The translations under genes and the position numbers were made by a program. DNA of 64,000 nt from Octopus sinensis (Eukaryota): positions 434,001 to 498,000 of the forward strand of contig NC_043025.1 in NCBI RefSeq assembly GCF_006345805.1. Reading direction: 5' to 3'. Of this stretch, positions 458 to 60,863 are shown piece after piece. Position 1 is the first letter of the stretch. Each line of letters starts with the position of its first letter. The notes below the pieces were generated by a model. That model had not been told where the DNA came from, did no database searches, and saw only the letters and a program-made list of their open reading frames with translations.

Positions 458-850
458 ACCAGAAAAATATTGAGCGACACCGATAGGCTGTACTTGTCCA
501 AACGAAAGGGTGGGAGAGTTTTGATCAGTTGCCAGGACTGTATCGAAGCAGAGGAAAACAGCTTACGGTGTCATAAACAGATGTCGTAGTTTCCAAATTA
601 TTACAGGGTACCATGGCGAAGTGGAATTCACGTCTCTTTCTAAACCATAGTAATGGGATGAGCCAATCTAATAACATCAACATTGAACGAGACATCTCTC
701 AAAGGTGACTCCTTCAACCCATTACTCTTTTGCATGCCATTGATCCCACTCTCAAACGAACTGTGTAACACCAGGCATGGGTTCAAAATGTATAATATAG
801 TAAATCATCTGTTTTATATGAACGATCTGAAGCTGTCTACAACTGGTAAA
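458..850 (+). mobile_element. Two Dong/R4-clade reverse transcriptase fragments
   Basis: DRLYLSKRKGGRVLISCQDCIEAEENSL resembles RLYxxRxxGGRGL. GDSFNPLLFCMPLIPLS...NHLFYMNDLKL resembles QGDSLSPLLF...YMDDLKL. The two pieces are out of their normal order. Confidence 0.8.
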
Positions 851-899
851 AAGAAAAAGAAAGAAAAAGGAGGAAAAAGAAAAGAAAAGAGAAAAGAAT

Positions 900-11770: not shown

Positions 11771-12154
11771 ATGTTGCCGAAGGGAAATGATGCGACATTC
11801 AAAGGCATTTTGGATCGATGTTTAGCCGCGTATGGTATCACTGTATGTATGGATCCGTAAAAATAAAACATGCGCATCAGTCAGAAAATTGTTAATAACC
11901 TGTGAATTGAACAAAAGTAACTTATGCCTTTTTTCTTTTTGTTTCATGAGTTGTACAAAAACATCCTTGTTAGTTTAACTGTGTAAATTTAAAATCAGTA
12001 TTATGTATTTAAAACCTGAATTACCTCCCTTTATATTGAAGTCGGAGTTATTTCCCTTGCAGAAGAAGTTAGATTCACTAAGGGAGATAACTAAAGGTAA
12101 TTAAAAGTTTTCCGAAAACGTTTCCATTGCGTTCATACGTATATGTTTAACTAA

Positions 12155-13178: not shown

Positions 13179-14533
13179 ATGATGAGCAGAAACGTTTGTG
13201 TTAATCACCCGAACAGCTTTTGTTAAGTGTGTGGAAAATTTGCACCAAAAGATCATAGAAATATGCTTACAAAGAAATTTTTAAATGCTTACAAGTTTTG
13301 CTTTGGGTGCAAAATTGGTATCAAGGTAAACTGTAGGGGCCTCATGTTTATTACAAAATCTGCTCTATAGCACTAACCCAATGGCTGAATGGTAAATGGA
13401 AAAGTATGCTATTTGCATTACCAATGATATGGCGCGAACCAACAAACCACTATACCGATTGTTATTTCTGCTTAACTAACATCACAGGTTTCTCAAAGAA
13501 GACCAAATCCAAGATTATTTATCCAGATTGCCCTTCGGCTTTAATATCAGTTGCTCATAGTGCTGAAAATATTCCAATTCCAGAACCTCTTTCATCTTTT
13601 GACAAAGATAGTTTAAGTGAAGAAAGTACTGCATCTACTTCAATTGAAGTCGTGCCTAGTAATGCAGCAGATCCCTGTGATGAACCAGGATCTTCAAAAA
13701 TGTTCCTTATTTATTAAGTCAACTTGAGTTAAATGATTTAGTTAGAAACTTGGGTTTAACAAAAGAAAAGTCAAAACTACTTGGCTCCAGGTTGAAATAA
13801 TGGGATCTTTAACACGATGATGTATAATGCTCGTATTTTCGAAAACTGCATACAGAATTACATGGATTTTTTACGGAGAAAGACGGTATTTGTTTTTGTT
13901 TTGATGTTGGACTCCTGCGTGAGATGGGGTACAGCCATAATCCTGAAGAATGGAGACTCTTCATAGATTCCAGAAAAGCAAGCCTAAAAGCAGTTTTGCT
14001 GCATAATAGCAATCAAAAACTTTCAATACCACTAGCACATGCTGTAGGATTAAAGGAAACTTATGAATTTTGCACTTGATTAAGCATTCTGAATACAAGT
14101 GGAAAATATGCGGAGACTCGAAAGTTATTGGTTTGCTTCTTGGGTTGCAAATGGAGTATACAAAGCATCAGTGTTTTTTGTGCTTTTGGACCAGCAGAGA
14201 TGACAAGCATCACTATGATCAAAAAGAGTGGCCAAAAGAAGTGATTTCACTCCAGGGAAATACAACGTTAAATATATCTCTTTAGTTGACTCGCAGAAAA
14301 TTTATCTTCCCCTTTACACATTAAAGTTGGCTTATTTAAGAATTTTGTTAAGGCCATAAATGAAGACGGTGTAGGATTCAAATATCTCAAGGAAAAATTT
14401 GTTTCTAGTAAGAGTGAAGCTAAGATCAAAGCTAGTGTTTTTAATGGACCAGAAATTTGCGCACTAATCTGTGATGAGCTTTTTCAAGAAAAATTAAACC
14501 CAGTAAAGAAAGCTGCTTGGGAAAATTTTGTTT
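13179..14533 (+). pseudogene. Chapaev3 transposase, N-terminal and central part
   Basis: MMSRNVCVNHPNSFC*VCG, MLFALPMIWREPTNHYTDCYFC, EWRLFIDSRKASLKAVLLHN, WKICGDSKVIGLLLGLQ..YTKHQCFLCFW, LHIKxGL.KNFVKA and AAWENFV, with stops and frameshifts. Confidence 0.9.
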
Positions 14534-14554
14534 CTCTTCGCTCTTTTAAAAAAA

Positions 14555-14943
14555 TTTTCTCTTTTACTTGATTCAGTCATTTGACTGCGGCCATGCTGGA
14601 GGACCGCCTTTAGTCGAGCAAATCGACCCCAGGACTTATTCTTTGTACGCCTAGTACTTATTCTATCGGTCTTTTGCCGAACCGCTAAGTTACGGGGACG
14701 TAAACACACCAGCATCGGTTGTCAAGCGAGATTGGGGGGACAAACACAGACACGCAAACATATACACACACACAAATACACACATATATATATACATATA
14801 TACGACGTGCTTTCTTTCAGTTTCCGTCTACCAAATCCACTCACAAGGCTTTGTTCGGCCCGAGGCTATACTAGAAGACACTTGCCCAAGGTGTCATGCG
14901 GTGGGACTGAATCCGGAACCATGTGTTTGGTAAGCAAGCTACT
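14555..14943 (-). mobile_element. tRNA-derived SINE (octopus OK/OR type), body and 3' part
   Basis: Same family as the uninterrupted copy at 58612-59025. It breaks off at GGTAAGCAAGCTACT. Confidence 0.92.
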
Positions 14944-17240
14944 TTATTTCAAAAATTTGCCATAAAGGCATGATATAGAGTAGCTTGCGGGTTGGACAAA
15001 GACATTGATGAGGGGAATAATGAAAAGGATGATATTAATAGAAGACAAAAAACGTCCGCCTGTTTTTACTTCTCTAAAACATAATTCTCTTCGTTTTTTT
15101 TTAACAGAAAAAGACAAAACGAGGTAATGAACCTCTTACTTCAGTTTTACAATTTTTGGACTAATAAGTTCATTTAAGAATTGGGGCGTTAAGCCTCTTA
15201 AACACAATAACATGCAATAATCATTAAACATTATACAATAAACATTATAACACTGAGTCTTTTCAACCACATGTCTCTATTCCTCACCAACATCGCTTGT
15301 GTCCGTATACTCCGCCATCCCCCACGCCTCATTGAAGACCAAGGCGGGATCCGCCCGGCCACAAGCGATAATTTCTCATTGAGTCCCTGCAGCCTCTACG
15401 TCATGGGCAACGTTATGACCTCCACAGCTATCTACGGAGGGCATTCGGGATCCTGTGTGAAGGTTAAAGCTACTCCCTTATGGTACTTTTCCAACACCTC
15501 TTCAACCTCTCCTCCTCTGCAGAAGAAGACCAATAGTTCCTCTTCCTCTGGGTTCGAGGTAGTCAATTCTACCGCTGGGGGCACAATTCCTCCCAACGGC
15601 GTCTCTTACCCTGCCGGAGGCACAACCCCTACCGGCAAGGTTCCGGGACATTCCGGTTCTATGTCACCGACTGCCGGCAATGTCCCATTTCTCTTCCTCT
15701 TTTTTCCTCTCAACTGAGGGAGGGCGCGTCTCCTCCGTGACCGGGAGATTCGCCTCGCCTCCCTCATCTCTAGGATCCTTCGTTGAGCACCCATTGTTGC
15801 TCACCTTCTTCCTCTAGCGGCCCTTCTTTGAGGAGTCCTCCGTCTCCTCGGCTGTCTTCGTTCCTTCTTCTACAGAGGCCTCAATCAACTGCTCCAGGAC
15901 TTTGCTTTATTCCTGAGAACAGTTTTTCTTTATATGGCCTGGCTCCAGGCACCGATGACACCTGGGGAGGGGGCGACCCCAAGAATCACCGGGTACCTGC
16001 ATCCGGCCATTTAAAAAAAATCTGGCATAACCAGCTTCATGGCTGATTGGGCTCACAGGGTCAAAACAGCTTTTGACCCAACCCAATCATCCACAGGAAG
16101 AATTTTCACATTGAGAAGCCTGGCTCCGCTTCCACCCAGACCCCGACGGATAGTATCCTCTATCCACTGAGGTTCAATTCCGGGTGGCAAACCACAAACC
16201 CAAGCCTTCGTCAATTTTTTCCCAGAATAAGTGGGAAGAAACAACATTTCTTTACCCTCAAAGGGCTGGCTCGCAAAACTGCGAGCTTCCTCTGGAGTGT
16301 CAACCCCTAGAGATATACTTAATGGTTGGCAGATGTTCCGCCAACTCCTGCTCATTCATCCGCTTGGAGATGACGGCAATGTTGTCGAGAACCTTCGAAT
16401 ACGTTCTCAACACCACCGTTCTTCCCTCTTGCTGTCTGAACCACTCCTTAGGTGGGACAATCTCCCACTCTACAATCTTATCCGTATTTTTGCTATGTTT
16501 TAAATTAAAAAGTAAAATGTCCAAAACAAAAGACAATAGTTCACAAATTTCAAAAAGAAAAGTGAGAGATCAAAAGAAAACAAAAGGGAAGAAGAGAAAA
16601 AGCAAACAGTTCAATAAGAAAGTCACAATAGAAGAAGAAAACAATAGTTCAACAAAATACAGCAAAAAATCTCCTGGGCGTTCAGGTACTCCAAGCCCTA
16701 TGGTACTCCAATTAGAACCTGGACTGCTTCACTTGAAATACAGCTTTCCAATTATTAGTAAACGTAGTTGTAAAAATGCACACTATTCACAAACAGCGAA
16801 CAACTTTTGGTGGCAGGATACGCCACCAAACTATACTTCTCACAATGAGAAAACATTTTCACCTAATACGAACACTTGAAATACAGCTTTCCAATAAATG
16901 GTAAATGTTGTTGTAAAAACATGCACTATTAAAAAGTGAACAACTTTTGGTTGAATGATACGCCCCCAAACTGTACTTCTCACGCGAAAAAAAATTTCAC
17001 TTAATGTGAACAATATTGCTGAACCGCAAGCAGACCAACATCTAGAATCCACTGAGGACTCCTTGTTTGTAAAAAATATAACCACAGACAACAAACCCTA
17101 CTGGACTCAAGAGACAAAAGTCTTACCTTGCAGGAGCTTCTTTTTGGCAGGTTAAACACTGCCGACTGTCTTTTTCAGTGCACATCACAATGACCCATGC
17201 GTACACTGACAACAAAGACTTATGGGAAGTCTCAAAGACT
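14944..17240 (-). mobile_element. ORF1-only non-LTR retroelement, copy A (Tx1/L1-like gag, decayed)
   Basis: Frameshifted ORF at about 16497-15280 with AWVCGLPPGIEPQWI and CCHC knuckle CHRCLEPGHIKKNC (15919-15960). No EN/RT. Ends GAAATA and is flanked by duplicated SINE target. Confidence 0.8.
16730..17011. repeat. Two diverged tandem copies of a roughly 143-bp unit in the 5' UTR of copy A
   Basis: CACTTGAAATACAGCTTTCCAAT... starts at both 16730 and 16873. Confidence 0.9.
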
Positions 17241-17263
17241 CATGGGTTGGTAAGCAAGCTACT

Positions 17264-19436
17264 TTATTTCATTATGGTTTGCCATAAAGGCATTACAAAG
17301 AGAGGCTTGCGGGCTGGACACATACATTGATAAGGTGAATGATGAAACAAGGATGATATTGATGGGAGAAGACAAAAAACGTCCGCCGATTTTCTGCTTC
17401 TCTAAAACATCATTCTTCTTTTTTTCCAACTGAAAAAAACAAAACAAAATGCGGTATTGAACCTCTCACGGCAGTTTTTTACAATTATTGGACTTAATAG
17501 TCCATTACAAATAATAACATGCAATAACATACAATAAAATATTCAATATACAATCAACACTAGTCCATTTACAAATGAGGCGCTGAGCCTCTTGCACTTT
17601 ATAATACTGAGGCTTTTCAACCTCTTGTCAATTTTCCACCTCATCATCGCTTGTGTCCATGTACTCCACCATCACCCATGCTTGCTTTAAAATCAAGGTG
17701 GGCTCCGAGTTGGCGTCACCCGGCCACGAGCGATATTTCTCTTTTAGTCCCTCCAGCCTATGTAACACGCGCAACGTTATCACTTCCACAGCTATCTGCG
17801 GAGGCCATTCGGGATTCCGTGTGAAGGCCAAAGGTACTCCCTCGTAGTATTCTGCCACCACCTTTTTCACCTCTCCACCTCTATAAAAGAAGACCAACTG
17901 TTCTTCGTCCTCCGGGTCCGAGGGGGTCAATTCTACCGTTGGCGGCACAATTTCCGCTCCGCCGGTGAACAACCGATGAGGCTCGGGGACACTCCGGCGC
18001 CTTGTTTCCGACTGCCGGCAATGTCCCGTTTCTCCTCCTCTTCCTCTTTTTTCTTCTCGACTGGGGGAGGGTGCGTCTCTTCCGTGACCGAGAGATTCGC
18101 CGCCCCTCCCTCATCCTCAGGATCCTTCGGTGAGCACCCATTATTGCTCACCTTCTCCCTTTTGCGGCTCTTCTTTGAGGAGTCCTTCGTCTCCTCGACC
18201 GCCTTCATTCCCTCCTCTGCAGAGGTCTCCATCAACCGCTCCAGGACTTTGCTTTGCCCTTGAGGAGAGTTCTTATTTATATGGCCAGGCTCCAGGTACA
18301 GATGACAATTGGCGGGGGGGGCGACCCTGAAGCATTACCGGATACCTAGACCCGGCCATTCTCAAAAAGTCTCGAAATACCAGACTTTCGGCTGACTGGG
18401 TCCATAGGGTCAAAACAATTTTTGACTCCCCCGAGTAAGCCGCAGGCAGAATATTTACGTTGAGGAGCTTGGTGCTACTGCCACCCAGACCCCGGCGGAT
18501 AGCATCTCCTATCCCTTCGTGCTCAACTCCGGGTGGCAAGCCGCATACCCAAGTTCTCGTCAACTTCTTCCCACAATAAGTAGGAAGAAACAAAAATTCA
18601 TTGCCCTCCAGGGCTGGCTCGCAAATTCACAAGCCACTTCTGGGGATTCAAACAGCAACCACATGGTTGCGTATTTGACCCCCGAGAGATAAACTTAATC
18701 GCTGGCTTAAATTCTGCCAGCTCTCTTTCGATTATATCCTTTATGAAAACGGCAATGGCGTCGAGGGTCCTAGAGTAGGTCCTCAAAACCACCGTCTTAC
18801 TTTCAAGTTCTTTTAACCATCTTTTGGGTGGCGTAATTTCTCACTCCACCAACTTTCAATTGTTATTTGCCATGTTTTTTTAAAAATTCCAAAAAAACAG
18901 TTTTAAAATACAAAATAATTAAGAAAAAGGAAGGAAGAGAAAAAAGTTCAAACAAAAAGGAAGGAGAAAAAATAACAGCTCAATAAAGAGTTTTTTTTTA
19001 ATAAAAGATAGATGAAGAGAGAGCAACAGTTCAAAATACAGCAAAGGCCACTCGGCACTGCAGGCCAAAATTTTAACGCAAATGTTAAACAGTTAAAAAA
19101 ATCATTCCAATTTGACAGGAACAATATTGTTGAAATTTTTCTAAAAATTCCCACGGAGTTATTCCTGGACAAATACTATTTTTAAGCGCCCACCAAAACA
19201 AAAATTTTCACAATTAAGTGAAAAAAAAAAATTCACTCAGGCCCAGGTAGACTAGAATCCAGTGACGATTTCTTGTGTGTAAAAAATAGTTGCGGCAAAC
19301 AACAGGTCCTCACTGGACACAAAAAATCTTACCTAACAGCTGAGTTTCAAAAATCTTCCATTTAAGACAGCTTCAAAAACACATCTTACAGCTTCAGTAT
19401 CAAACACAACTCTGATTCGCACATGCGCAATGAAGA
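17264..19436 (-). mobile_element. ORF1-only non-LTR retroelement, copy B (diverged relative of A)
   Basis: ORF from ATG 18873 to stop 17628 with frameshifts. It has TWVCGLPPGVEHEGI, a degenerate knuckle CHLYLEPGHINKNS and the same 3' UTR architecture ending GAAATA. Confidence 0.8.
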
Positions 19437-19465
19437 AAGCAAGCTACTTACCACACCGCCACTCC
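19437..19465 (-). mobile_element. Displaced 5' head of the SINE at 14555-14943
   Basis: AAGCAAGCTACTTACCACACCGCCACTCC matches 58994-59021 of the intact SINE copy. Confidence 0.9.
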
Positions 19466-19691
19466 ATCTAACATACGTTGCAATTGTGAATGATTTTTCG
19501 AAAGCTTATGAGCAACTTGGGAATGTCTCTAAAAGTTCATTTCGTGCACTGTCATCTTGACTTTCTTTCCTCCCAGTATGAGTGATGTAAGCGATGAGCG
19601 GGGTGAACGATTTCATCACAAAATCAAAGAGCTAGAAAGGCGCTACAGTGGCAGACTTACAGCAAACATGCTGACGGACTACTACTGGTTT
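19466..19691 (+). pseudogene. Chapaev3 transposase C-terminal part, running in frame into the satellite
   Basis: VAIVNDFSKAYEQLG..MSLKVHFVHCHLDF..FPPSMSDVSDERGERFHHKIKELERRYSGRLTANMLTDYYW matches the family motif MSLKxHFLHSHLDFFP..VSDEHGERFHQDI..ME.RYQG....MLADYCW. Confidence 0.92.
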
Positions 19692-19842
19692 AAAGAACTA
19701 GAAAGGCGCTACAGTGGCAGGCTTACAGCAAACATGCTGACGGACTACTGCTGGTTTAAAGAACTAGAAAGGCGCTACAGTGGCAGATTTACAGCAAACA
19801 TGCTGACGGACTACTGCTGGTTTAAAGAACTAGAAAGGCGCT

Positions 19843-21509
19843 CGTAAAATTCGGTAAAAAAAGATCAAAAAGAATTGTTGTTGTTGTTGTGGTAATTTTG
19901 AACGGCGTTAAAGCGGTTTCGCGTTCCACTGGTTCTGCGCGTAACACTTTTTCTGTTTTGACGGCCGTTTTGGCCTGTCAGGCGGGAGGAGATGGATGAC
20001 CACTCCCTAGTGGAGGAGTCGGAGGAAGAATGGATATTTGAGAGCTTGTCGGAGACATCGAACTCTGAAGACGAGCAAATCGGTGATGTAAATAATGTGG
20101 AGACAAAAAACAGGAAAACGTACGCAGGAGTTGCAAAAAAGAAGACGGAACAGGAAAAAGAAATAAACCTAGAAAAATTGCCAGGTTTCCAGAGGTATAT
20201 GAGGAAGGACAGCGGCGAGGTGGAACTGGAACCACCACCAAAGAGAAAGGAATGGTACAATAAGAGGACCATAATTTACAGGGTGTTCGTGAACGAAAGA
20301 AAGAAAATAGAGATCGTAAACATGGAATGGATAGAGGAGGCCCTGAGAAGATCGGAGGAGGAAATCATTTTTCTGACTCGAGGATCGAAGTACGGTACTG
20401 TAGTGGTGCATTTTAAAAGTGAGACTGCAGCGAGGAGGATGGCGGTGAAGGCGGTGAAGTCAGAAAGGGTAACACTTTTACCTATGTACTTGAATAGAAG
20501 GATCACACGAGTAAGGGTGGAGGGAGTGCCACCAAACGTGGAGGCTGAGTGGATTGTGCGGCTGTGATCAGCGGCCACGAGGAGAAGTAGATATTCTCCA
20601 TGCCTCGGTCAAGACCGAGGGCTGGAGAGGCGTAATAGTGGAGCTGAACGTGCAGGCGGAGAGCGAGGTACTGGTGGACCTGGCGGAGAGCATTAAATTG
20701 GGAGACGTGATTATGAGAGTGTGGGTGGAGGGCAGAGCTCCACGTTGTTACAAGTGTGGCCTGAGGGGCCACATAAGAGCCTTCTGCCCTCCCCCACCAA
20801 GAGAAAAGGAAATCGTTGAGGAAACTCCAAAAGAGGAGGCCCCAAAAGAAGAAGAAATTAAAGAGAAGCAGACGGAAAGGGAAATGACAGAGGAGGAGGA
20901 CATGCAAAAAGAGTGTGAGGAGGGCAGAAAGAAGAGAAAAGGAAAGAAAAGGAAAAACTGTGCGAAGCCCCAACCCAGCCCAATACCACCCACACCCTTG
21001 GAGACCCATCCTGCCCCCGCAAACAGCAATCCCACCCACTCCCCGCCTACAAGAAAAACGAAAACAGACACACAGAACATACAAAAGCCCCAGTCCTACT
21101 TTTTATGTGTTGTAGGGAAGGGGGATACTGAGAACGCAAGAAGGCTTTTTGAAGACGATGTATGGCAGGAGTATGAGGACGGAAGCTATGCGGTATTCGA
21201 TTTTGAACTCATGGGCTCTTTGATGAGCAAGTGCAATGAACTACGTATAAATTGTTTATCAGCATATATGAAGGATGATATGATAGAGAGATATGAGAGA
21301 GAAATGAAAGGTGAGGTGAAAAACTTTGGAATCGTGATAGGAAACGGAAAGGTAAGTGATGCTGGCGGAGGGGGCCGTTAGCATCGCTTTCATGTTATCA
21401 TTTTTTCATTTTAACATTCATTTAATCATAATTTTAATCGCATTGTTTTATGTCCCCCATGTTTTGTAATGTTCCCTCTTCGTGGCCCCTAGTGGGTAAT
21501 AAAGAAATA
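19843..21509 (+). mobile_element. ORF1-only non-LTR retroelement, copy C, inserted in the satellite
   Basis: Sharp boundaries inside the repeat. Ends ...GCCCCTAGTGGGTAATAAAGAAATA. Flanked by an apparent 35-bp duplication (19808-19842 and 21510-21544). Confidence 0.88.
19992..21381 (+). pseudogene. Tx1/L1-like ORF1 (gag-like, CCHC zinc knuckle), one frameshift near 20560
   Basis: TYAGVAK, RVRVEGVPPNVEAEWI and VWVEGRAPRCYKCGLRGHIRAFCP motifs. About 460 aa if the frameshift is repaired. Confidence 0.82.
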
Positions 21510-24500
21510 GGACTACTGCTGGTTTAAAGAACTAGAAAGGCGCTATAGTGGCAGACTTACAGCAAACATGCTGACAGACTACTGCTGGTTTAAAGAACTA
21601 GAAAGGCGCTACAGTGGTAGGCTTACAGCAAACATGCTGACGGACTACTGCTGGTTTAAAGAGCTAGAAAGGCGCTACAGTGGCAGGCTTACAGCAAACA
21701 TGCTGACGGACTACTGCTGGTTTAAAGAGCTAGAAAGACGCTACAGTGGCAGGCTTACAGCAAACATGCTGACGGACTACTGCTGGTTTAAAGAACTAGA
21801 AAGGCGCTATAGTGGCAGATTACAGCAAACATGCTGACGGACTACTGCTGGTTTAAAGAAAGTAGAAAGGCGCTACAATGGCAGGCTTACAGCAAACATG
21901 CTGACGGACTACTGCTGGTTTAAAGAACTAGAAAGGCGCTACAGTGGCAGGCTTACAGCAAACATGCTGCCGGACTACTGCTGGTTTAAAGAACTAGAAA
22001 GGCGCCACAGTGGCAGATTTACAGCAAACATGCTGACGGACTACTGCTGGTTTAAAGAACTAGAAAGGCGCGACTGTGGCAGGCTTACAGCAAACATGCT
22101 GACGAACTACTGCTGGTTTAAAGACCTAGAAAGGCGCTACAGTGGCAGGCTTACAGCAAACATGCTGACGGACTACTGCTGGTTTAAAGAAAGTAGAAAG
22201 GCGCTACAGTGGTAGGCTTACAGCAAACATGCTGACGGACTACTGCTGGTTTAAAGAGCTAGAAAGGCGCTACAGTGGCAGGCTTACAGCAAACATGCTG
22301 ACGAACTACTGCTGGTTTAAAGAGCTAGAAAGGCGCTACAGTGGCAGGCTTACAGCAAACATGCTGACGGACTACTGCTGGTTTAAAGAACTAGAAAGGC
22401 GCTATAGTGGCAGATTACAGCAAACATGCTGACGGACTACTGCTGGTTTAAAGAAAGTAGAAAGGCGCTACAATGGCAGGCTTACAGCAAACATGCTGAC
22501 GGACTACTGCTGGTTTAAAGAACTAGAAAGGCGCTACAGTGGAAGGCTTACAGCAAACATGCTGACGGACTACTGCTGGTTTAATGAGCTAGAAAGGCGC
22601 TACATTGGCAGGCTTACAGCAAACATGCTGACGGACTACTGCTTGTTTAAAGAACTAGAAAGGCGCGACAGTGGCAGACTTACAGCAAACATGCTGACGG
22701 ACTACTGCTGGTTCAAAGAACTAGAAAGGCGCTACAGTGGCAGACTTACAGCAAACATGCTGACGGACTACTGCTGGTTTAAAGAACTAGAAAGGCGCGA
22801 CAGTGGCAGGCTTACAGCAAACATGCTGACGGACTACTGCTGGTTTAAAGAACTAGAAAGGAGCTACAGTGGCAGACTTACAGCAAACATGCTGACGGAC
22901 TACTGCTGGTTTAAAGAACTAGAACGGCGCTACAGTGGCAGACTTACAGCAAACATGCTGACGGACTACTGCTGGTTTAAAGAACTAGAAAGGCGCGACA
23001 GTGGCAGGCTTACAGCAAACATGCTGACGAACTACTGCTGGTTTAAAGAACTAAAAAGGCGCTACAGTGGCAGGCTTACAGCAAACATGCTGACGGACTA
23101 CTGCTGGTTTAAAGAAAGTAGGAAGGCGCGACAGTGACAGATTAACAGCAAACATGCTGACGGACTACTGCTGGTTTAAAGAACTAGAATGGCACTACAG
23201 TGGCAGGCGTACAGCAAACATGCTGACGGACTACTGCTGGTTTAAAGAACTAGAAAGGAGCTACAGTGGCAGGCTTACAGCAAACATGCTGACGGACTAC
23301 TGCTGGTTTAAAGAACTAGAAAGGCGCTACAGTGGCAGGCTTACAGCAAACATGCTGACGGACTACTGCTGGTATAAAGAACTCGAAAGGCGCTACAGTG
23401 GCAGACTTACAGAAAACATGCTGACGGACTACTGCTGGTTTAAAGAACTAGAAAGGCGCTACAGTGGCAGACTTACAGAAAACATGCTGACGGACTACTG
23501 CTGGTTTAAAGAACTTGAAAGGCGCTACAGTGGCAGGCTTACAGCAAACATGCTGACGGACTACTGCTGGTTTAAAGAACTAGAAAGGCGCTACAGTTGC
23601 AGACTTACAGAAAACATGCTGACGGACTACTGCTGGTTTAAAGAACTAGAAAGGCGCCACAGTGGCAGACTTACAGAAAACATGCTGACGGACTACTGCT
23701 GGTTTAAAGAACTAGAAAGGCGCTACAGTGGCAGACTTACAGAAAACATGCTGACGGACTACTGCTGGTTTAAAGAACTAGAAAGGCGCTACAGTGGCAG
23801 ACTTACAGAAAACATGCTGACGGACTACTGCTGGTTTAAAGAACTTGAAAGGCGCTACAGTGGCAGACTTACAGAAAACATGCTGACGGACTACTGCTGG
23901 TTTAAAGAACTTGAAAGGCGCTACAGTGGCAGACTTACAGCAAACATGCTGACGGACTACTGCTGGTTTAAAGAACTAGAAAGGCGCTACAGTGGCAGAC
24001 TTACAGAAAACATGCTGACGGACTACTGCTGGTTTAAAGAACTTGAAAGGCGCTACAGTGGCAGACTTACAGCAAACATGCTGACGGACTACTGCTGGTT
24101 TAAAGAACTTGAAAGGCGCAACAGTGGCAGACTTACAGAAAACATGCTGACGGACTACTGCTGGTTTAAAGAACTTGAAAGGCGCTACAGTGGCAGACTT
24201 ACAGCAAACATGCTGACGGACTACTGCTGGTTTAAAGAACTAGAAGGGCGCTACAGTGGCAGGCTTCCAGCAAACATGCTGACGAACTACTGCTCGTTTA
24301 AAGAACTAGAAAGGCTCCACAGTGGCAGGCTTACAGCAAACATGCTGAGGGACTACTGCTGGTGTAAAGAACTAGAAACGCGCTACAGTGGAAGGCTTTC
24401 AGCAAACATGCTGATGGACAACTGCTGGTTTCAAGAACTAGAAAGGCGCTACAGTGGCAGATATACATCAAACATGCTGACGGACTACTGCTGGTTTAAA

Positions 24501-27500
24501 GAACTTGAAAGGCGCTACAGTGGCAGACTTACAGAAAACATGCTGACGGACTACTGCTGGTTTAAAGAACTTGAAAGGCGCTACAGTGGCAGACTTACAG
24601 CAAACATGCTGACGGACTACTGCTGGTTTAAAGAGCTAGAAAGGCGCTACAGTGGCAGACTTACTGCAAACATGCTGACGGACTACTGCTGGTTTAAAGA
24701 GCAAGAAAGGCGCTACAGTGGCAGACTTACAGCAAACATGCTGACAGACTACTGCTGGTTTAAAGAACTTGAAAGGCGCTACAGTGGCAGACTTACAGCA
24801 AACATGCTGACAGACTACTGCTGGTTTAAAGAACTAGAAAGGCGCTACAGTGGCAGGCTTACAGCAAACATGCTGATGGACTACTGCTGGTTTAAAGAAC
24901 TAGAAAGGCGCTACAGTGGCAGACTTACAGCAAACATGCTGACGGACTACTGCTTGTTTAAAGAGCTAGAAAGGCGCTACAGTGGCAGACTTACAGCAAA
25001 CATGCTGACGGACTACTGCTGGTTGAAAGAGCTAGAAAGGCGCTACGGTGGCAGACTTACAGCAAACATGCTGACGGACTACTGCTGGTTTACAGAACTA
25101 GAAAGGCGCTACAGTGGCAGGCTTACAGCAAACATGCTGACGGACTACTGCTGGTTTAAAGAACTAGAAAGGCGCTACAGTGGCAGACTTACCGCAAACA
25201 TGCTGACGGACTACTGGTTGTTTAAAGAACTAGAAAGGCTCTACAGTGGCAGACTTACAGCAAACATGCTGACGGACTACTGCTGATTTCAAGAACTAGA
25301 AAGGCGCTACAGTGGCAGACTTACGCAAACATGCTGACGGACTACTGCTGGTTTAAAGAGCTAGAAAGGCGCTACAGTGGCAGACTTACAGCAAGCATGC
25401 TGACGGACTACTGCTGGTTTAAAGAGCTAGAAAGGGGCTACAGTGGCAGGCTTACAGCAAACATGCTGACGGACTACTGCTGGTTTAAAGAACTAGAAAG
25501 GCGCTATAGTGGCAGACTTACAGCAAACATGCTGACGGACTACTGCTGGTTTAAAGAAAGTAGAAAGGCGCTACAGTGGCAGACTTACAGCAAACATGCT
25601 GACGGACTACTGCTGGTTTAAAGAACTAGAAAGGCGCTACAGTGGCAGGCTTACAGCAAACATGCTGACGGACTACTGCTGGTTAAAAGAGCTAGAAAGG
25701 CGCTACAGTGGCAGGCTTACAGCAAATATGCTGACGGACGACTGCTGGTTTAAAGAACTAGAAAGGCGCTACAGTGGCAGGCTTACAGCAAACATGCTGA
25801 CGGACTACTGCTGGTTTAAAGAACTAGAAAGGCGCAACAGTGGTTGGTTTACAGCAAACATGCAGACGGACTACTGCTGGTTTAAAGAACTAGAAAGGCG
25901 CTACAGTGGCAGACTTACCGCAAACATGCTGACGGACTACTGCTGGTTTGAAGAGCTAGAAAGGCGTTACAGTGGCAGGCTTACAGCAACCATGCTGACG
26001 GACTACTGCTGGTTTAAAGAACTAGAAAGGCGCTATAGTGGCAGGCTTACAGCAAACATGCTGACGGACTACTGCTGGTTTAAAGAACGACAAAGGCGCT
26101 ATAGTGGCAGGCTTACAGCAAACATGCTGACGGACTACTGCTGGTTTAAAGAGCTAGAATGGCGCTACTGTGGCAGGCTTACAGCAAACATGCTGACGGA
26201 CTACTGCTGGTTTAAAGAGCTAGAAAGGCGCTACAGTGGCAGGCTTACAGCAAACATGCTGACGGACTACTGCTGGTCTAAAGATCTAGAAAGGCGCTAC
26301 AGTGGCAGGCTTACAGCAAACATGCTGACGGACTACTGCTGGTTTAAAGAACTAGAAAGGCGCTATAGTGGCAGATTACGACAAACATGCTGATGGACTA
26401 CTGCTGGTTTAAAGAAAGTAGAAAGGCGCTACAGTGGCAGACTTACAGCAAACATGCTGACGGACTACTGCTGGTTTAAAGAGCAAGAAAGGCGTTACAT
26501 TGGCAGGCTTACAGCAAACATGCTGACGGACAACTGCTGGTTTAAAGAACTAGAAAGGCGCTACAGTGGCAGGCTTACAGCAAACATGATGACGGACTAC
26601 TGCTGGTTTAAAGAACTTGAAAGGCGCTACAGTGGCAGACTTACAGCAAACATGCTGACGGACAACTGCTGGTTTAAAGAACTAGAAGGGCGCTACAGTG
26701 GCAGGCTTACAGCAAACATGATGACGGACTACTGCTGGTTTAAAGAACTTGAAAGGCGCTACAGTGGCAGACTTACAGCAAACATGCTGACGGACAACTG
26801 CTGGTTTAAAGAACTAGAAAGGCGCTACAGTGGCAGGCTTACAGCAAACATGATGACGGACTACTGCTGGTTTAAAGAACTAGAAAGGCTCTCCAGTGGC
26901 AGACTTGCAACAAACATGCTGACGGACTACTGCTGGTTAAAAGAAATAGAAAGGCGCTACAGTGGCAGACTTACAGCAAACATGCTGACGGACAACTGCT
27001 GGTTTAAAGAACTTGAAAGGCGCTACAGTGGCAGACTTACAGCAAACATGCTGACGGACTACTGCTGGTTAAAAGAACTAGAAAGGCGCTACAGTGGCAG
27101 GCTTACAGCAAACATGATGACGGACTACTGCTGGTTTAAAGAACTAGAAAGGCGCTACAGTGGCAGACTTACAGCAAACATGCTGACGGACAACTGCTGG
27201 TTTAAAGAACTAGAAGGGCGCTACAGTGGCAGGCTTACAGCAAACATGATGACGGACTACTGCTGGTTTAAAGAACTAGAAAGGCGCTACAGTGGCAGAC
27301 TTACAGCAAACATGCTGACGGACTACTGCTGGTTTAAAGAACTAGAAAGGCGCTACAGTGGCAGCTTACAGCAAACATGCTGACGGACTACTGCTGGTTT
27401 AAAGAACTAGAAAGGCGCTACAGTGGCAGACTTACAGCAAACATGCTGACGGACTACTGCTGGTTTAAAGAACTAGAAAGGCGCTACAGTGGCAGGCTTA

Positions 27501-30500
27501 CAGCAAACATGCTGACGGACTACTGCTGGTTTAAAGAACTTGAAAGGCGCTACAGTGGCAGACTTACAGCAAACATGCTGACGGACAACTGCTGGTTTAA
27601 AGAACTAGAAAGGCGCTACAGTGGCAGGCTTACAGCAAACATGATGACGGACTACTGCTGGTTTAAAGAACTTGAAAGGCGCTACAGTGGCAGACTTACA
27701 GCAAACATGCTGACGGACAACTGCTGGTTTAAAGAACTATAAAGGCGCTACAGTGGCAGGCTTACAGCAAACATGATGACGGACTACTGCTGGTTTAAAG
27801 AACTAGAAAGGCTCTCCAGTGGCAGACTTGCAACAAACATGCTGACGGACTACTGCTGGTTTAAAGTACTAGAAAGGCGCTACAGTGGCAGGCTTACAGC
27901 AAACATGCTGACGGACTACTGCTGGTTAAAAGAAATAGAAAGGCGCTACAGTGGCAGGCTTACAGCAAACATGCTGACGGACGACTGCTGGTTAAAAGAA
28001 CTAGAAAGGCTCTCCAGTGGCAGGCTTACAGCAAACATGCTGACGGACTACTGCTGATTTAAAGAAATAGAAAGGCTCTCCAGTGGCAGACTTGCAACAA
28101 ACATGCTGACGGACTACTGCTGGTTTAAAGAGCTAGAAAGACGCTACAGTGGCAGGCTTACAGCAAACATGCTGACGGACTACTGCTGGTTAAAAGAGCT
28201 AGAAAGACGCTACAGTGGCAGGCTTTCAGCAAACATGCTGACGGACTACTGCTGGTTTAAAGAACTAGAAAGGCGCTACAGTGGCAGGCTTACAGCAAAC
28301 ATGCTGACGGACTACTGCTGGTTTAAAGAAATAGAAAGGCGCTATAGTGGCAGGCTTACAGCAAACATGCTGACGGACTACTGCTGGTTTAAAGAACTAG
28401 AAAGGCGCTACAGTGGCAGACTTACAGCAAACATGCTGACGGACTACTGCTGGTTTAAAGAAATAGAAAGGCGCTATAGTGGCAGGCTTACAGCAAACAT
28501 GCTGACGGACTACTGCTGGTTTAAAGAGCTAGAAAGGCGCTGCAGTGGCAGACTTACCGCAAACATGCTGACGGACTACTGCTGGTTTAAAGAGCTAGAA
28601 AGACGCTACAGTGGCAGGCTTACAGCAAACATGCTGACGGACTACTGCTGGTTTAAAGAACTAGAAAGGCGCTACAGTGGCAGACTTACAGCAAACATGC
28701 TGACGGACTACTGCTGGTTTAAAGAACTAGAAAGGCGCTACAGTGGCAGGCTTACAGCAAACATGCTGACGGACTACTGCTGGTTTAAAGAACTAGAAAG
28801 GCGCTACAGTGGCAGGCTTACAGCAAACATGCTGACGGACTACTGCTGGTTTAAAGAAATAGAAAGGCGCTATAGTGGCAGGCTTACAGCAAACATGCTG
28901 ACGGACTACTGCTGGTTTAAAGAGCTAGAAAGACGCTACAGCGGCAGGCTTACAGCAAACATGCTGACGGACTACTGCTGGTTTAAAGAAATAGAATGGC
29001 GCTACAGTGGCAGACTTACCGCAAACATGCTGACGGACTACTGCTGGTTTAAAGAACTAGAAAGGCGCTACAGTGGCAGACTTACCGCAAACATGCTGAC
29101 GGACTACTGCTGGTTTAAAGAACTAGAAAGGCGCTACAGTGGCAGACTTACAGCAAACATGCTGACGGACTACTGCTGGTTTAAAGAGCTAGAAAGGCGC
29201 TACAGTGGCAGGCTTACCGCAAACATGCTGACGGACTACTGCTGGTTTAAAGAAAGTAGAAAGGCGCTATAGTGGCAGGCTTACAGCAAACATGCTGACG
29301 GACTACTGCTGGTTTAAAGAAAGTAGAAAGGCTCTCCAGTGGCAGGCTTACAGCAAACATGCTGACGGACTACTGCTGGTTTAAAGAAAGTAGAAAGGCT
29401 CTCCAGTGGCAGGCTTACAGCAAACATGCTGACGGACTACTGCTGGTTTAAAGAGCTAGAAAGGCGCTACAGTGGCAGGTTTACAGCAAACATGCTGACG
29501 GACTACTGCTGGTTTAAAGAACTAGGAAGGCGCTACAGTGGCAGGCTTACCGCAAACATGCTGACGGACTACTGCTGGTTTAAAGAACTAGAAAGGCGCG
29601 ACAGTGGCAGACTTACCGCAAACATGCTGACGGACTACTGCTGGTTTAAAGAAAGTAGAAAGGCGCTATAGTGGCAGGCTTACAGCAAACATGCTGACGG
29701 ACTACTGCTGGTTTAAAGAAAGTAGAAAGGCTCTCCAGTGGCAGGCTTACAGCAAACATGCTGACGGTCTACTGCTGGTTTAAAGAGCTAGAAAGGCGCT
29801 ACAGTGGCAGGCTTACAGCAAACATGCTGACGGACTACTGCTGGTTTAAAGAACTAGAACTGCTGGTTTAAAGCTTAAAGAGCTAGAAAGGCGCTACAGT
29901 GGCAGGCTTACAGCAAACATGCTGACGGACTACTGCTGGTTTAAAGAACTAGAAAGGCTCTGCAGTGGCAGGCTTACAGCAAACATGCTGACGGACTACT
30001 GCTGGTTTAAAGAACTAGAAAGGCTCTCCAGTGGCAGGCTTTCACAGCAAACATGCTGACGGACTACTGCTGGTTAAAGAACTAGAAAGGCGCTCAGTGG
30101 CAGGCTTACAGCAAACATGCTGACGGACTACTGCTGGTTTAAAGAACTAGAAAGGCGCTACAGTGGCAGGCTTACAGCAAACATGCTGACGGACTACTGC
30201 TGGTTTAAAGAGCAAGAAAGGCGCTACAGTGGCAGGCTTACAGCAAACATGCTGACGGACTACTGCTGGTTTAAAGAACTAGAAAGGCGCTACAGTGGCA
30301 GGCTTACAGCAAACATGCTGACGGACTACTGCTGGTTTAAAGAACTAGAAAGGCGCTACAGTGGCAGGCTTACAGCAAACATGCTGACGGACTACTGCTG
30401 GTTTAAAGAACTAGAAAGGCGCTACAGTGGCAGGCTTACAGCAAACATGCTGACGGACTACTGCTGGTTTAAAGAACTAGAAAGGCGCTACAGTGGCAGG

Positions 30501-33500
30501 CTTACAGCAAACATGCTGACGGACTACTGCTGGTTTAAAGAACTTGAAAGGCGCTACAGTGGCAGACTTACAGCAAACATGCTGACGGACTACTGCTGGT
30601 TTAAAGAACTAGAAAGGCGGACAGTGGCAGGCTTACAGCAAACATGCTGACGGACTACTGCTGGTTTAAAGAACTAGAAAGGCGCTACAGTGGCAGCTTA
30701 CAGCAAACATGCTGACGGACTACTGCTGGTTTAAGAACTAGAAAGGCGCTACAGTGGCAGGCTTACAGCAAACATGCTGACGGACTACTGCTGCTTTTTA
30801 AAGAACTAGAAAGGCGCTACAGTGGCAGACTTACAGCAAACATGCTGACGGACTACTGCTGGTTTAAAGAACTAGAAAGGCGCTACAGTGGCAGGCTTAC
30901 AGCAAACATGCTGACGGACTACTGCTGGTTTAAAGAACTAGAAAGGCTCTCCAGTGGCAGACTTCAGCAAACATGCTGACGGACTACTGCTGGTTTAAAG
31001 AACTAGAAAGCGCTACAGTGGCAGGCTTACAGCAAACATGCTGACGGACTACTGCTGGTTTAAAGAACTAGAAAGGCGCTACAGTGGCAGGCTTACAGCA
31101 AACATGCTGACGGACTACTGCTGGTTTAAAGAACTAGAAAGGCGCTCCAGTGGCAGGCTTACAGCAAACATGCGACGGACTACTGCTGGTTTAAAGAACT
31201 AGAAAGGCGCTCCAGTGGCAGACTTACAGCAACATGCTGACGGACTACTACTGCTGTTTAAAGAGCTAGAAAGACGCTACAGTGGCAGGCTTACAGCAAA
31301 CATGCTGACGGACTACTGCTGGTTAAAAGAGCTAGAAGGCGCTACAGTGGCAGGCTTACAGCAAACATGCTGACGGACTACTGCTGGTTTAAAGAACTAG
31401 AAAGGCGCTACAGTGGCAGGCTTACAGCAAACATGCTGACGGACTACTGCTGGTTTAAAGAATAGAAAGGCGCTACAGTGGCAGGCTTACAGCAAACATG
31501 CTGACGGACTACTGCTGGTTTAAAGAACTAGAAAGGCGCTCAGTGGCAGACTTACAGCAAACATGCTGACGGACTACTGCTGGTTTAAGAATAGAAAGGC
31601 GCTACAGTGGCAGGCTTACAGCAAACATGCTGACGGACTACTGCTGGTTTAAAGAGCTAGAAAGGCGCTGCAGTGGCAGCTTACAGCAAACATGCTGACG
31701 GACTACTGCTGGTTTAAAGAGCTAGAAAGGCGCTACAGTGGCAGGCTTACAGCAAACATGCTGACGGACTACTGCTGGTTTAAAGAACTAGAAAGGCGCT
31801 ACAGTGGCAGGCTTACAGCAAACATGCTGACGGACTACTGCTGGTTTAAGAACTAGAAAGGCGCTACAGTGGCAGGCTTACAGCAAACATGCTGACGGAC
31901 TACTGCTGGTTTAAAGAACTAGAAAGGCGCTACAGTGGCAGGCTTACAGCAAACATGCTGACGGACTACTGCTGGTTTAAAGAACTAGAAAGGCGCTACA
32001 GTGGCAGGCTTACAGCAAACATGCTGACGGACTACTGCTGGTTTAAAGAGCTAGAAAGACGCTACAGTGGCAGGCTTACAGCAAACATGCTGACGGACTA
32101 CTGCTGGTTTAAAGAAATAGAAAGGCGCTACAGTGGCAGACTTACAGCAAACATGCTGACGGACTACTGCTGGTTTAAAGAACTAGAAAGGCGCTACAGT
32201 GGCAGGCTTACAGCAAACATGCTGACGGACTACTGCTGGTTTAAAGAACTAGAAAGGCGCTACAGTGGCAGACTTACAGCAAACATGCTGACGGACTACT
32301 GCTGGTTTAAAGAGCTAGAAAGCGCTACAGTGGCAGGCTTACGCAAACATGCTGACGGACTACTGCTGGTTTAAAGAACTAGAAAGGCGCTTTAGTGGCA
32401 GGCTTACAGCAAACATGCTGACGGACTACTGCTGGTTTAAAGAAAGTAGAAAGGTTCTCCAGTGGCAGGCTTACAGCAAACATGCTGACGGACTACTGCT
32501 GGTTTAAAGAACTAGAAAGGCGCTACAGTGGCAGACTTACCGCAAACATGCTGACGGACTACTGCTGGTTTAAAGAACTAGAAGGCGCTACAGTGGCAGA
32601 CTTACAGCAACATGCTGACGGACTACTGCTGGTTTAAAGAACTAGAAAGCGCTACAGTGGCAGGCTTACAGCAAACATGCTGACGGAACTACTGCTGGTT
32701 TAAAGAACTAGAAAGGCGCACAGTGGCAGGCTTACAGCAAACATGCTGACGGACTACTGCTGGTTTAAAGAAAGTAGAAAGGCGCTTAGGGCAGGCTTAC
32801 AGCAAACATGCTGACGACTACTGCTGGTTTAAAGAAAGTAGAAGGTTCTCCAGTGGCAGGCTTCAGCAAACATGCTGACGGACTACTGCTGGTTTAAAGA
32901 CTAGAAAGGCGCAACATGGCAGGCTTACCGCAACATGCTGACGGCTACTGCTGGTTTAAAGAAAGTAGAAAGGCGCTTTCTGGCAGGCTTACAGCAAACA
33001 TGCTGACGGACTACTGCTGGTTTAAAGAACTAGAAGGCGCTACAGTGGCAGACTTACAGCAAACATGCTGGACGGACTACTGCTGGTTTAAGAGCTAGAA
33101 GGCGCAACAGTGGCAGGCTTACCGCAAACATGCTGACGGACTACTGCTGGTTTAAAGAAAGTAGAAAGGCGCTTTAGTGGCAGGCTTACAGCAAACATGC
33201 TGACGGACTACTGCTGGTTTAAAGAAAGTAGAAAGGCCTCCAGTGGCAGGCTTACAGCAAACATGCTGACGGACTACTGCTGGTTTAAGAAAGTAGAAAG
33301 GCTCTCCAGTGGCAGGCTTACAGCAAACATGCTGACGGACTACTGCTGGTTTAAAGAGCTAGAAAGGCGCTACAGTGGCAGCTTACAGCAAACATGCTGA
33401 CGGACTACTGCTGGTTTAAAGAACTAGGAAGGCGCTACAGTGGCAGAGGCTTACCGCAAACATGCTGACGACTACTGCTGGTTTAAAGAACTAGAAAGGC

Positions 33501-57500: not shown

Positions 57501-57964
57501 TGACGGACTACTGCTGGTTTAAAGAGCGAGAAAGGCGTTACAGTGGCAGGCTTACAGCAAACATGCTGACGGACTACTGCTGGTTTAAAGAGCGAGAAAG
57601 GCGTTACAGTGGCAGACTTACAGTAAACATGCTGACGGACTACTGCTGGTTTAAAGAGCGAGAAAGGCGTTACAGTGGCAGGCTTACAGCAAACATGCTG
57701 ACGGACTACTGCTGGTTTAAAGAGCGAGAAAGGCGTTACAGTGGCAGACTTACAGCAAACACTGCTGACGGACTACTGCTGGTTTAAAGAGCGAGAAAGG
57801 CGTTACAGTGGCAGGCTTACAGCAAACATGCTGACGGACTACTGCTGGTTTAAAGAGCGAGAAAGGCGTTACAGTGGCAGACTTACAGTAAACATGCTGA
57901 CGGACTACTGCTGGTTTAAAGAACTAGAAAGGCGCTGCAGTGGCAGGCTTACAGCAATACTTAT

Positions 57965-58611: not shown

Positions 58612-59025
58612 ATTACTCTTTTACTCTTTTACTTGTTTCAGTCATTTGACTACGGCCAAGCTGGAGCACCGCCTTTAGTCGAGCAACTCGACCCCGGGAC
58701 TTATTCTTTGTAAGCTTAGTACTTATTCTATCGGTATCTTTTGCCGAACCGCTAAGTGACGGGGACGTAAACACACCAGCATCGGTCGTCGAGCAATGTT
58801 AGGGGGACAAAACAGACCCACACAAACACCACACACACACACACACACCATATATATACATATACGACAGGCTTCTTTCAGTTTCCGTCTACCAAATCCA
58901 CTCACAAGACATTGGTCGGCCCGGGGCTATAGCAGAAGACATTTGCCCAAGATGCCACGCAGTGGGACTGAACCCGGAGCCATGTGGCTGGTTAGCAAGC
59001 TACTTACCACACAGCCACTCCTGCG
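58612..59025 (-). mobile_element. Full-length tRNA-derived SINE (octopus OK/OR type)
   Basis: Minus strand reads CGCAGGAGTGGCTGTGTGGTAAGTAGC (A box), GGGTTCAGTCCC (B box), CTTGGGCAAATGTC, an internal (TG)n and an (AGTAAAAG)n tail. Confidence 0.93.
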
Positions 59026-60440: not shown

Positions 60441-60506
60441 CATTCTCTGCTTTGGTCTCATGTTCAAGGCATGAGAAAGCTTGATTTTACATGAGAAGGC
60501 CTAACA

Positions 60507-60770: not shown

Positions 60771-60863
60771 TTTCTGCTACTTGGATATAGGTGTTATATT
60801 CGTCGTAAAAAAACTTTCCTGTCACACACACGCACACGCACACACACACACACACACACGCAC

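What the first reader, a model, noticed from the sequence alone, without database searches (positions are those of the whole stretch)
14944..21509. Three 'half-LINE' elements with gag-like ORF1, no ORF2, and a shared 3' hairpin plus GAAATA terminus
Seen: each element (1.7-2.3 kb) is 5' UTR, CCHC-knuckle ORF1, then a short 3' UTR, with no EN/RT remnant. Each ends in a small hairpin (TGCC-TTTAT-GGCA in A and B, GCCC-CTAGT-GGGT in C) and GAAATA without a poly(A) tail. Known: this parallels mammalian HAL1, a non-autonomous ORF1-only L1 derivative. Inference: at least two lineages of protein-coding non-autonomous retroelements borrow RT from a Tx1-like partner that recognises the 3' tail.
Basis: partly seen in the sequence, partly recalled or inferred. 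Interest (0 to 1): 0.7.

Follow-up and report, generated by a model that had tools for sequence, protein, structure and literature searches.

The report
Octopus half-LINEs nested inside a SINE
Three octopus jumping genes kept their RNA-binding protein but lost the copying enzyme, so they must borrow it, and two of them landed on exactly the same base of another repeat; this is a known lifestyle seen in a new lineage.

Summary
A (14945-17240, minus), B (17265-19436, minus) and C (19843-21509, plus) are octopus non-LTR retroelements: 5' UTR, an RRM-RRM-CCHC ORF1, a 128-363 nt 3' UTR, then GAAATA with no poly(A). No endonuclease or RT trace was found, and ORF2 cannot fit.

A and B are about 75% identical, with ORF1 dN/dS 0.37 and the same ORF1-to-tail layout, so they are not one-off deletions. 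C is a distant lineage. Its tail shares only GAAATA and the hairpin geometry with A/B; that hairpin alone is not above chance.

A and B lie head to tail at the same nucleotide of one SINE head, with 13-bp and about 24-bp target duplications. C sits in a 36-kb satellite built from 22 codons of a broken transposase.

Best reading: HAL1-like ORF1-only families mobilised in trans by a target-preferring L1/Tx1-clade LINE. The partner, its clade, genome-wide copy number and SINE specificity could not be tested without an octopus genome. Main rival: retrocopies of short ORF1 transcripts from full-length LINEs. Verdict: new variant of a known kind.

The parts
14945..17240 (-). Element A, ORF1-only retroelement, decayed (start codon changed, 7 stops in 355 aligned codons, 28-nt deletion near 16303)
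15277..16496 (-). ORF1 of A (RRM-RRM-CCHC, charged linker, C-terminal domain); stop position approximate
14958..14970 (-). 3' hairpin of A (4-bp stem, 5-nt loop), then GAAATA at 14950-14945
14920..14944 (-). Downstream copy of A's target-site duplication (25 nt), continuing into the SINE body
17241..17264 (-). 24-nt SINE-derived spacer between B's 3' end and A's 5' end: upstream TSD copy of A and downstream TSD copy of B
17265..19436 (-). Element B, ORF1-only retroelement (3 stops in 355 aligned codons, several 1-nt frame slips)
17628..18873 (-). ORF1 of B; 77% identical over 100 aa to Octopus sinensis LOC115225585 (P0002)
17280..17292 (-). 3' hairpin of B, identical to A's; GAAATA at 17270-17265; a longer stem-loop lies upstream at about 17342-17437 (z -3.06 in B, only -1.06 in A)
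19437..19449 (-). Upstream copy of B's 13-bp target-site duplication
19450..19465 (-). First 16 nt of the host SINE head, holding an A-box-like motif (read by eye)
   Evidence: comparison with the empty copy
14555..14944 (-). Rest of the host SINE, 342 of 385 aligned bases identical to the uninterrupted copy
58620..59021 (-). Uninterrupted copy of the same SINE (the empty site)
19843..21509 (+). Element C, ORF1-only retroelement of a distant lineage
19992..21381 (+). ORF1 of C: no in-frame stop, two 1-nt frame slips between about 20555 and 20584
21485..21509 (+). 3' hairpin of C (21485-21497), AATAAA, GAAATA terminus
19808..19842 (+). Upstream copy of the 35-bp repeat flanking C (downstream copy 21510-21544); a duplication or, within a 66-bp array, a 31-bp deletion
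19626..57957 (+). 66-bp satellite (3.3 + about 553 units) that C interrupts; each unit is 22 codons in frame with a broken transposase
13180..19625 (+). Broken DNA-transposase remnant (about 13180-14540 and 19466-19625) that hosts the SINE and runs into the satellite
   Evidence: transposase label recalled from motifs, Pfam gave no family

Best explanation
A, B and C are copies of non-autonomous, ORF1-only LINE families of octopus. SHOWN: each encodes only a type I ORF1 (two RRM folds and a CCHC knuckle); each is bounded by direct repeats of target sequence; A and B descend from masters that diverged under purifying selection and already had the short-tail layout; A and B inserted separately at the same base of one SINE. 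INFERRED: a master copy is transcribed from an internal promoter in the 5' UTR; its own ORF1p packages the RNA; the endonuclease-RT of an autonomous L1/Tx1-clade LINE is borrowed in trans, nicks the target and primes reverse transcription at the GAAATA end, guided by the conserved 3' region rather than by poly(A); staggered second-strand cleavage gives the 13-35 bp duplications. For A/B the borrowed endonuclease prefers the site just 3' of the SINE's A-box-like motif. The first insertion (probably A) duplicated the target, and B then used the regenerated upstream copy. C uses another partner or a looser one.
For: Fold and domains: Atlas look-alikes of the O. sinensis relative P0002 are CCHC/RRM and ZCCHC3-RBD clusters at 0.89-0.93; an AlphaFold model of library relative P0020 (mean pLDDT 73.7, core above 90) matches tandem-RRM proteins. 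P0002 aligns to A, B (73-77%) and C (33%, E 2e-14). dN/dS A versus B 0.365, bootstrap 0.27-0.50, 345 of 355 codons, third positions 115 of 234 differences. Last 240 nt of A and B 84% identical with 10 gaps, mostly not multiples of three. TSDs and the empty SINE copy. A and B differ by about 25% while their TSD copies are identical (13 of 13) or nearly so, so they diverged before inserting. Further family members: P0002, P0056 (62% over 42 aa to A), P0001 (47 of 48 aa to C, O. vulgaris). Precedent: Tx1-clade elements and their non-autonomous dependants share targets inside other transposons (PMC4494074); RRM/CCHC ORF1s of non-mammalian animals are consistent with Tx1 (PMC5203782); O. vulgaris has 13 recently active L1-Tx1 families (PMC13282606).
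Against: No partner LINE was seen: none in the window shares the tails, and no longer ORF1-ORF2 form among 8000 candidates of 794-2265 aa (weak). The protein relatives carry no genomic context, so they do not show that other copies lack ORF2; the continuation of P0001 did not match C's 3' UTR (77 of 200 shuffles as high). C's tail is unlike A/B apart from the last 6 nt. Whole-tail folds are not significant for A or C (z 0.68, 0.26). Targeting rests on one locus; the other SINE copy in the window is empty. The order A-then-B rests on 7 versus 3 stops, which is weak. dS falls from about 1.9 in the first RRM to 0.27-0.40 downstream, which suggests mosaic history and complicates the single dN/dS figure.
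Confidence: 0.62

Rival explanations
1. The elements are retrocopies of short ORF1-only transcripts made by full-length autonomous LINEs that terminate in the inter-ORF spacer. The '3' UTR' is that spacer, and selection on ORF1 acted on the autonomous masters, so no self-sustaining half-LINE family need exist.
For: It explains dN/dS below 1 and the collinear A/B junction equally well. AATAAA lies at or just before each end. The post-ORF1 regions are U-rich.
Against: A prematurely polyadenylated RNA should leave a poly(A) tail, and none is present. All 3 of 3 copies in the window are short, with no ORF2-bearing relative. Two distant lineages end on the same hexamer (p about 2e-4). The last 240 nt of A/B are better conserved than ORF1 synonymous sites.
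Confidence: 0.2
2. ORF1-only families as described, but the partner is not Tx1/L1: for example an L2/CR1-type or other stringent LINE that reads a stem-loop plus short repeat tail.
For: A small stem-loop before a non-poly(A) end is the pattern described for stringent LINEs, some of which end in short repeats (PMC3747384). RRM/CCHC ORF1s are not unique to Tx1 (PMC5203782). CR1, RTE and Dong-R4 are abundant in O. vulgaris.
Against: Long TSDs (13, about 24, 35 bp) and exact-site preference fit the L1/Tx1 clade better than CR1/L2 (own knowledge; for Tx1 targeting). RTE and R4 lack an RRM-CCHC ORF1 (own knowledge).
Confidence: 0.12
3. Each element is a one-off internal deletion of a full LINE, dead on arrival.
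For: A and B are decayed. No second copy with proven context was available. For C there is only one copy in hand.
Against: A and B, about 25% apart, have the same ORF1-to-tail layout with no ORF2 remnant; two independent deletions would have to share both breakpoints, and a third would have to do the same in C.
Confidence: 0.06
4. On targeting only: A and B share a site without true SINE specificity. The second element used a weak TT/A-type site or the A-rich junction left by the first.
For: One locus only. The bottom strand at the site reads TT/A, like the loose L1 consensus (own knowledge). The first three target bases could pair with an RNA ending in an extended A-rich tail. C lies in an unrelated sequence, and the second SINE copy is empty.
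Against: Two insertions on the same base in a gigabase genome are unlikely without preference. Tandem insertion after target regeneration is typical of site-specific LINEs (R1: PMC3414825). The A/B ends carry no poly(A) tract to act as bait.
Confidence: 0.25

Closest known systems
HAL1 (half-L1), mammals
   Same: Non-autonomous derivative that encodes only ORF1p and arose several times (PMC5753468); 5' UTR + ORF1 + short 3' end; TSDs.
   Different: HAL1 derives from mammalian L1 with a type II (Transposase_22) ORF1 and, as recalled, ends in poly(A). These carry RRM-RRM-CCHC, lack poly(A), are from a mollusc, and A/B show exact-site insertion.
HeT-A (Jockey clade) and Ag-Sponge (CR1 clade)
   Same: The other two 'ORF1-present' non-autonomous LINEs listed in PMC5786205; HeT-A has a knuckle-type ORF1 and forms head-to-tail arrays (own knowledge).
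   Different: HeT-A is telomeric with a long 3' UTR and no TSD (own knowledge); neither is L1/Tx1 clade; no sequence comparison was possible.
Tx1 clade (Tx1L, Keno, Kibi, Koshi, Tx1-Mar) and SINEU
   Same: Target preference for repeats, including other transposons; non-autonomous dependants inherit the target (PMC4494074); RRM/CCHC ORF1.
   Different: Those Tx1 elements are autonomous and SINEU encodes no protein. A SINE head is not among the targets named in the passages read.
SIDEs (R2, R2/R1) and other bipartite LINEs
   Same: Internally deleted, site-specific, use the partner's 3' recognition (PMC3414825).
   Different: They encode no protein.
Dada DNA transposons
   Same: Insert at the A box of tRNA genes (PMC8869645), close to the position used here in a tRNA-like head.
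   Different: DDE DNA transposons, unrelated mechanism.

Membership tests
ORF1-present non-autonomous LINE (HAL1-like) | Encodes a LINE ORF1 protein | tested here: met
   Tandem RRM + CCHC; fold made on relative P0020, not on the window protein
ORF1-present non-autonomous LINE (HAL1-like) | No ORF2 (EN/RT) | tested here: met
   0 of 40 segments hit RT/EN/zf-RVT with working RT controls; only 128-363 nt after ORF1
ORF1-present non-autonomous LINE (HAL1-like) | Inserted by retrotransposition (TSD, defined 3' end) | tested here: met
   13-bp and about 24-bp TSDs against an empty SINE copy; 35-bp repeat for C is ambiguous inside the array
ORF1-present non-autonomous LINE (HAL1-like) | ORF1 kept under selection | tested here: met
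   dN/dS 0.365 (0.27-0.50) for A versus B; cannot by itself separate selection before from after ORF2 loss
ORF1-present non-autonomous LINE (HAL1-like) | Multi-copy family sharing one ORF1-to-tail junction | tested here: inconclusive
   A and B share it; other relatives (P0001, P0002, P0056) have no context; C is a single copy
ORF1-present non-autonomous LINE (HAL1-like) | Autonomous partner sharing 5' and 3' parts | not testable with these tools
   No eukaryotic genome collection; none in the window
HAL1 proper | Type II (Transposase_22) ORF1 from mammalian L1 | tested here: not met
   No Transposase_22 among Pfam hits of 60 aligned members; architecture is RRM-RRM-CCHC
HAL1 proper | 3' poly(A) tail (feature recalled) | tested here: not met
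   All three end in GAAATA directly against target sequence
Tx1 clade derivation | RT phylogeny places the parent in Tx1 | not testable with these tools
   No RT in the elements; no fused ORF1-ORF2 relative
Tx1 clade derivation | Type I ORF1 (RRM + CCHC) | tested here: met
   consistent with but not unique to Tx1
Tx1 clade derivation | Target-sequence preference (over 20% of flanks) | tested here: inconclusive
   2 of 2 A/B copies at one base of one SINE; C elsewhere; one locus only
tRNA-derived SINE (the host of A and B) | tRNA-related head with A and B boxes | tested here: inconclusive
   A-box-like and B-box-like motifs read by eye; ARAGORN 0 genes and no Rfam tRNA match; octopus SINE identity recalled

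The most novel reading that the evidence does not exclude
Octopus carries old, repeatedly born ORF1-only LINE families with a non-poly(A) GAAATA end, and the A/B lineage is steered by a sequence-specific Tx1-type endonuclease into the Pol III promoter region of an abundant tRNA-type SINE. That would be a protein-coding parasite of a LINE that uses SINE heads as a safe haven, disables them, and stacks up in tandem at the regenerated site.
Probability: 0.3. Interest if true: 0.65.

Novelty: new variant of a known kind. Interest (0 to 1): 0.46.

Why it matters
ORF1-only non-autonomous LINEs are rare: one review lists them only for the Jockey, L1 and CR1 clades (PMC5786205). Two distant octopus lineages with a different ORF1 class would show that keeping ORF1 while dropping ORF2 is a recurrent strategy. 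They would also give natural material for asking what ORF1p offers an RNA that must borrow its RT. A SINE head as a fixed target would extend the known Tx1 target list and could matter in a genome that is about 12% SINE. The elements have no RT, so RT-based annotation will miss or mislabel them. It is a specialist result, not a new mechanism.

Tried and rejected
Single-sequence fold of P0002 failed (pLDDT 38). The C-terminal domains of A/B and C could not be linked to each other or to the conserved C-terminal domain of long library relatives (profile and hhalign probabilities under 1%; the shuffle control crashed and was not rerun). Atlas on that domain in P0020 gave only leads under 0.8 and ferredoxin-like folds at TM 0.45-0.58. 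PDB sequence searches of the B and C C-terminal parts found nothing significant. First EN controls failed in Pfam and PDB, so the ORF2 test was redone with RT controls. Rfam and ARAGORN found no tRNA in the SINE head. P0001's continuation does not match C's 3' UTR. A search for longer fused forms found none. Two tail folds used wrong B coordinates (17236 instead of 17265) and are not used; replace them. Cluster look-ups for source names gave no answer, so the taxa of P0003-P0151 are unknown. A recalled link between ZCCHC3 and Tx1 ORF1 was not confirmed in the paper checked. Rejected: tandem duplication of one insertion (A/B divergence far exceeds that of their TSD copies); a single template-switch dimer (target sequence lies between B and A); a host gene (TSDs, decay, nesting in repeats); an LTR gag (knuckle-only likeness, RRM core, no long terminal repeats).
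Full report
CHECK OF THE OBSERVATION. The three elements exist. A spans 14945-17240 and B 17265-19436 on the minus strand; C spans 19843-21509 on the plus strand. Their 5' UTRs are 744, 563 and 149 nt and the regions after the ORF1 stop 332, 363 and 128 nt (A's and B's stops may be decay rather than the original stop, as they fall one codon apart). A and B align over 1411 columns at 75%. C aligns to them only as protein (tblastx E 1e-9 and 3e-5).

HOST. The only named relatives are an Octopus vulgaris predicted protein, 47 of 48 residues identical to the end of C's ORF1, and O. sinensis LOC115225585, 73-77% identical to A and B and 33% to C. The window is therefore octopus (inference).

THE PROTEIN. 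A profile of P0002 plus window fragments found 285 clusters at E up to 0.001 among 1.84 billion representatives; the best 150 were listed. 130 of the 151 stored proteins hit the three elements by tblastn. Pfam on 35 of them showed zf-CCHC and some host-gene fusions but no EN or RT, and none of the 151 has a YADD/FADD-type motif. An AlphaFold model of relative P0020 from a 60-row alignment is confident in the core; Foldseek's best matches are tandem-RRM proteins such as IMP3 RRM12, Sxl and HuD (E 1.5e-4 to 1e-3), and VIA-align gives RRM/ACT-type domains at Z 7-8.4 for residues 62-143 and 142-225 (a common fold, middling Z). The Atlas places P0002 with CCHC, RRM and ZCCHC3-RBD clusters. So ORF1 is RRM-RRM-CCHC, the type I LINE ORF1 of PMC5203782 (passages). 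In a tree of 24 rows that covered the core (21 stored proteins plus the three window cores; the other stored proteins were left out as too short or repetitive), A, B and P0002 form a 100/100 group on a 1.82-long branch, and C lies elsewhere with no supported placement. Two lineages are thus real; whether they lost ORF2 independently is not shown.

NO ORF2. None of 40 stop-free sense-strand segments of 20 aa or more downstream of the knuckles hit RT, EN or zf-RVT. Among 18 control segments from other LINE remnants, two hit RVT_1 (3e-14, 2e-6), one zf-RVT and one EN weakly; earlier EN controls were missed. Space is the firmer argument.

SELECTION AND SHARED LAYOUT. Over 345 stop-free codons of 355 in five gap-free blocks, dN 0.20, dS 0.55, ratio 0.365 (bootstrap 0.27-0.50). 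dS ranges from 1.9 in the first block to 0.27-0.40 further 3', which hints at recombination between subfamilies. The last 240 nt of A and B are 84% identical with ten gaps, mostly not triplets: conserved but not coding. A has 7 stops and B 3 in the aligned blocks. C has no stop and two 1-nt slips; 97 of the 499 satellite marker spacings listed are single units off by 1-3 nt against 345 exact ones, so local indels are common and C may be intact (inference).

THE 3' END. A random end would read GAAATA with p about 2e-4, so the shared hexamer is meaningful. Beyond it, C's tail is not more similar to A or B than shuffles, and C's hairpin is matched by 12% of shuffles. The consensus fold of A/B keeps the terminal hairpin with no covariation in it. 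B has a strong upstream stem-loop (z -3.06); A folds alike but not significantly. The claim of a shared recognition structure is therefore good within A/B and weak across to C.

A and B interrupt one SINE. Its first 16 nt lie at 19450-19465 and the rest at 14555-14944; an uninterrupted copy lies at 58620-59021, 342 of 385 aligned bases identical. Reading on the minus strand: SINE head, 13-bp duplication, B, a 24-nt spacer of SINE sequence, A, a 25-nt copy of the same sequence, SINE body. Both 3' ends abut the same target base. Because A and B differ by a quarter while the duplications are nearly identical, these are two separate insertions. C is flanked by an exact 35-bp repeat inside the 66-bp satellite; in an array this could equally be a 31-bp deletion. 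Its target does not resemble that of A/B. The SINE in turn sits in a broken transposase whose reading frame runs straight into the satellite.

MECHANISM. The most likely account is target-primed reverse transcription in trans: the element supplies RNA and ORF1p, and an autonomous L1/Tx1-clade LINE supplies nicking and RT. The insertion scars, protein class, selection and missing ORF2 are shown. The promoter, the partner, tail recognition and sequence-specific nicking are inferred. The serious rival is that these are retrocopies of short transcripts from full LINEs; the absence of poly(A) and the conserved end argue against it, but only a genome search can decide.

COMPARISON WITH PRINT. PMC5786205 (passages) lists HeT-A, HAL1 and Ag-Sponge as the ORF1-present non-autonomous LINEs. 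PMC5753468 (passages) defines HAL1. PMC4494074 (passages) describes Tx1 targeting of transposons and SINEU. PMC13282606 (first third of the text, term passages and its one supplement) reports 80 L1-Tx1 families in O. vulgaris, 13 recently active, and never mentions ORF1 or non-autonomous LINEs; its consensus library was not in the supplement, so these families may already be in it. Passages only: PMC5203782, PMC3414825, PMC3747384, PMC8869645, PMC4758252, PMC11203168, PMC10351740, PMC12988792. Bao and Jurka 2010 was not held; details of HAL1 tails and of Kojima and Fujiwara 2004 are recalled. Ten searches listed no paper on ORF1-only Tx1-type elements in cephalopods or on a SINE-head target; subscription journals, Repbase and Dfam were not covered, and supplements of the other papers were not read.

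UNCHECKED. No octopus genome could be searched, so copy number, the partner and target specificity remain open. The taxa of the unnamed protein relatives are unknown.

VERDICT. Real, correctly described, HAL1-like in lifestyle but not HAL1. New variant of a known kind; interest 0.46, higher if SINE targeting holds genome-wide.

Noticed in passing
window 19626-19842 and 21510-57957: The 36.5-kb satellite (66 bp, about 556 units) is a tandem amplification of 22 codons from the C-terminal part of the adjacent broken transposase, in frame and without stops in the consensus unit; the transposon's own 3' end is missing after the array. The transposase motifs are recalled as Sola2-type; not tested.
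   Followed up: partly
window 13180-21509: Four-level nesting: DNA transposon, then SINE, then two half-LINEs; and transposon-derived satellite, then half-LINE C. The SINE shows no clear TSD and a few dozen bases of the transposase seem lost at its site.
   Followed up: partly
window 17042-17128 and 19252-19334 (minus): The otherwise divergent 5' UTRs of A and B share an 89-column block at 74% that begins with a splice-donor-like motif, followed by a pyrimidine-rich tract before the start codon: possible promoter element or 5' UTR intron.
   Followed up: no
window 16730-17012: A's 5' UTR has a two-copy tandem repeat of about 143 bp at 81% identity, as in monomer-type LINE promoters.
   Followed up: no
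proteins P0007, P0020, P0024, P0028, P0040, P0042, P0087, P0104, P0112, P0122, P0141: Long ORF1 relatives share a conserved C-terminal domain of no Pfam family, possibly a third ferredoxin/RRM-like fold; A, B and C have C-terminal domains that could not be linked to it.
   Followed up: partly
proteins P0041, P0056, P0064, P0129: ORF1 fragments appear fused to WD40, integrase, LDL-receptor and C2H2 zinc-finger domains in predicted proteins; probably gene-model artefacts or exonised copies.
   Followed up: no
window 752-1411, 9100-10130, 11000-11900, 59741-60325, 61560-62250, 62540-64000: Remnants of other retroelements: GIY-YIG (Penelope-like), EN-like, zf-RVT and RT-bearing fragments; none shares the half-LINE tails.
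   Followed up: partly
window 60506-60771: 103-bp tandem repeat, 2.6 copies; and a diverged copy of the SINE's 3' part at about 60202-60440 on the opposite strand.
   Followed up: no
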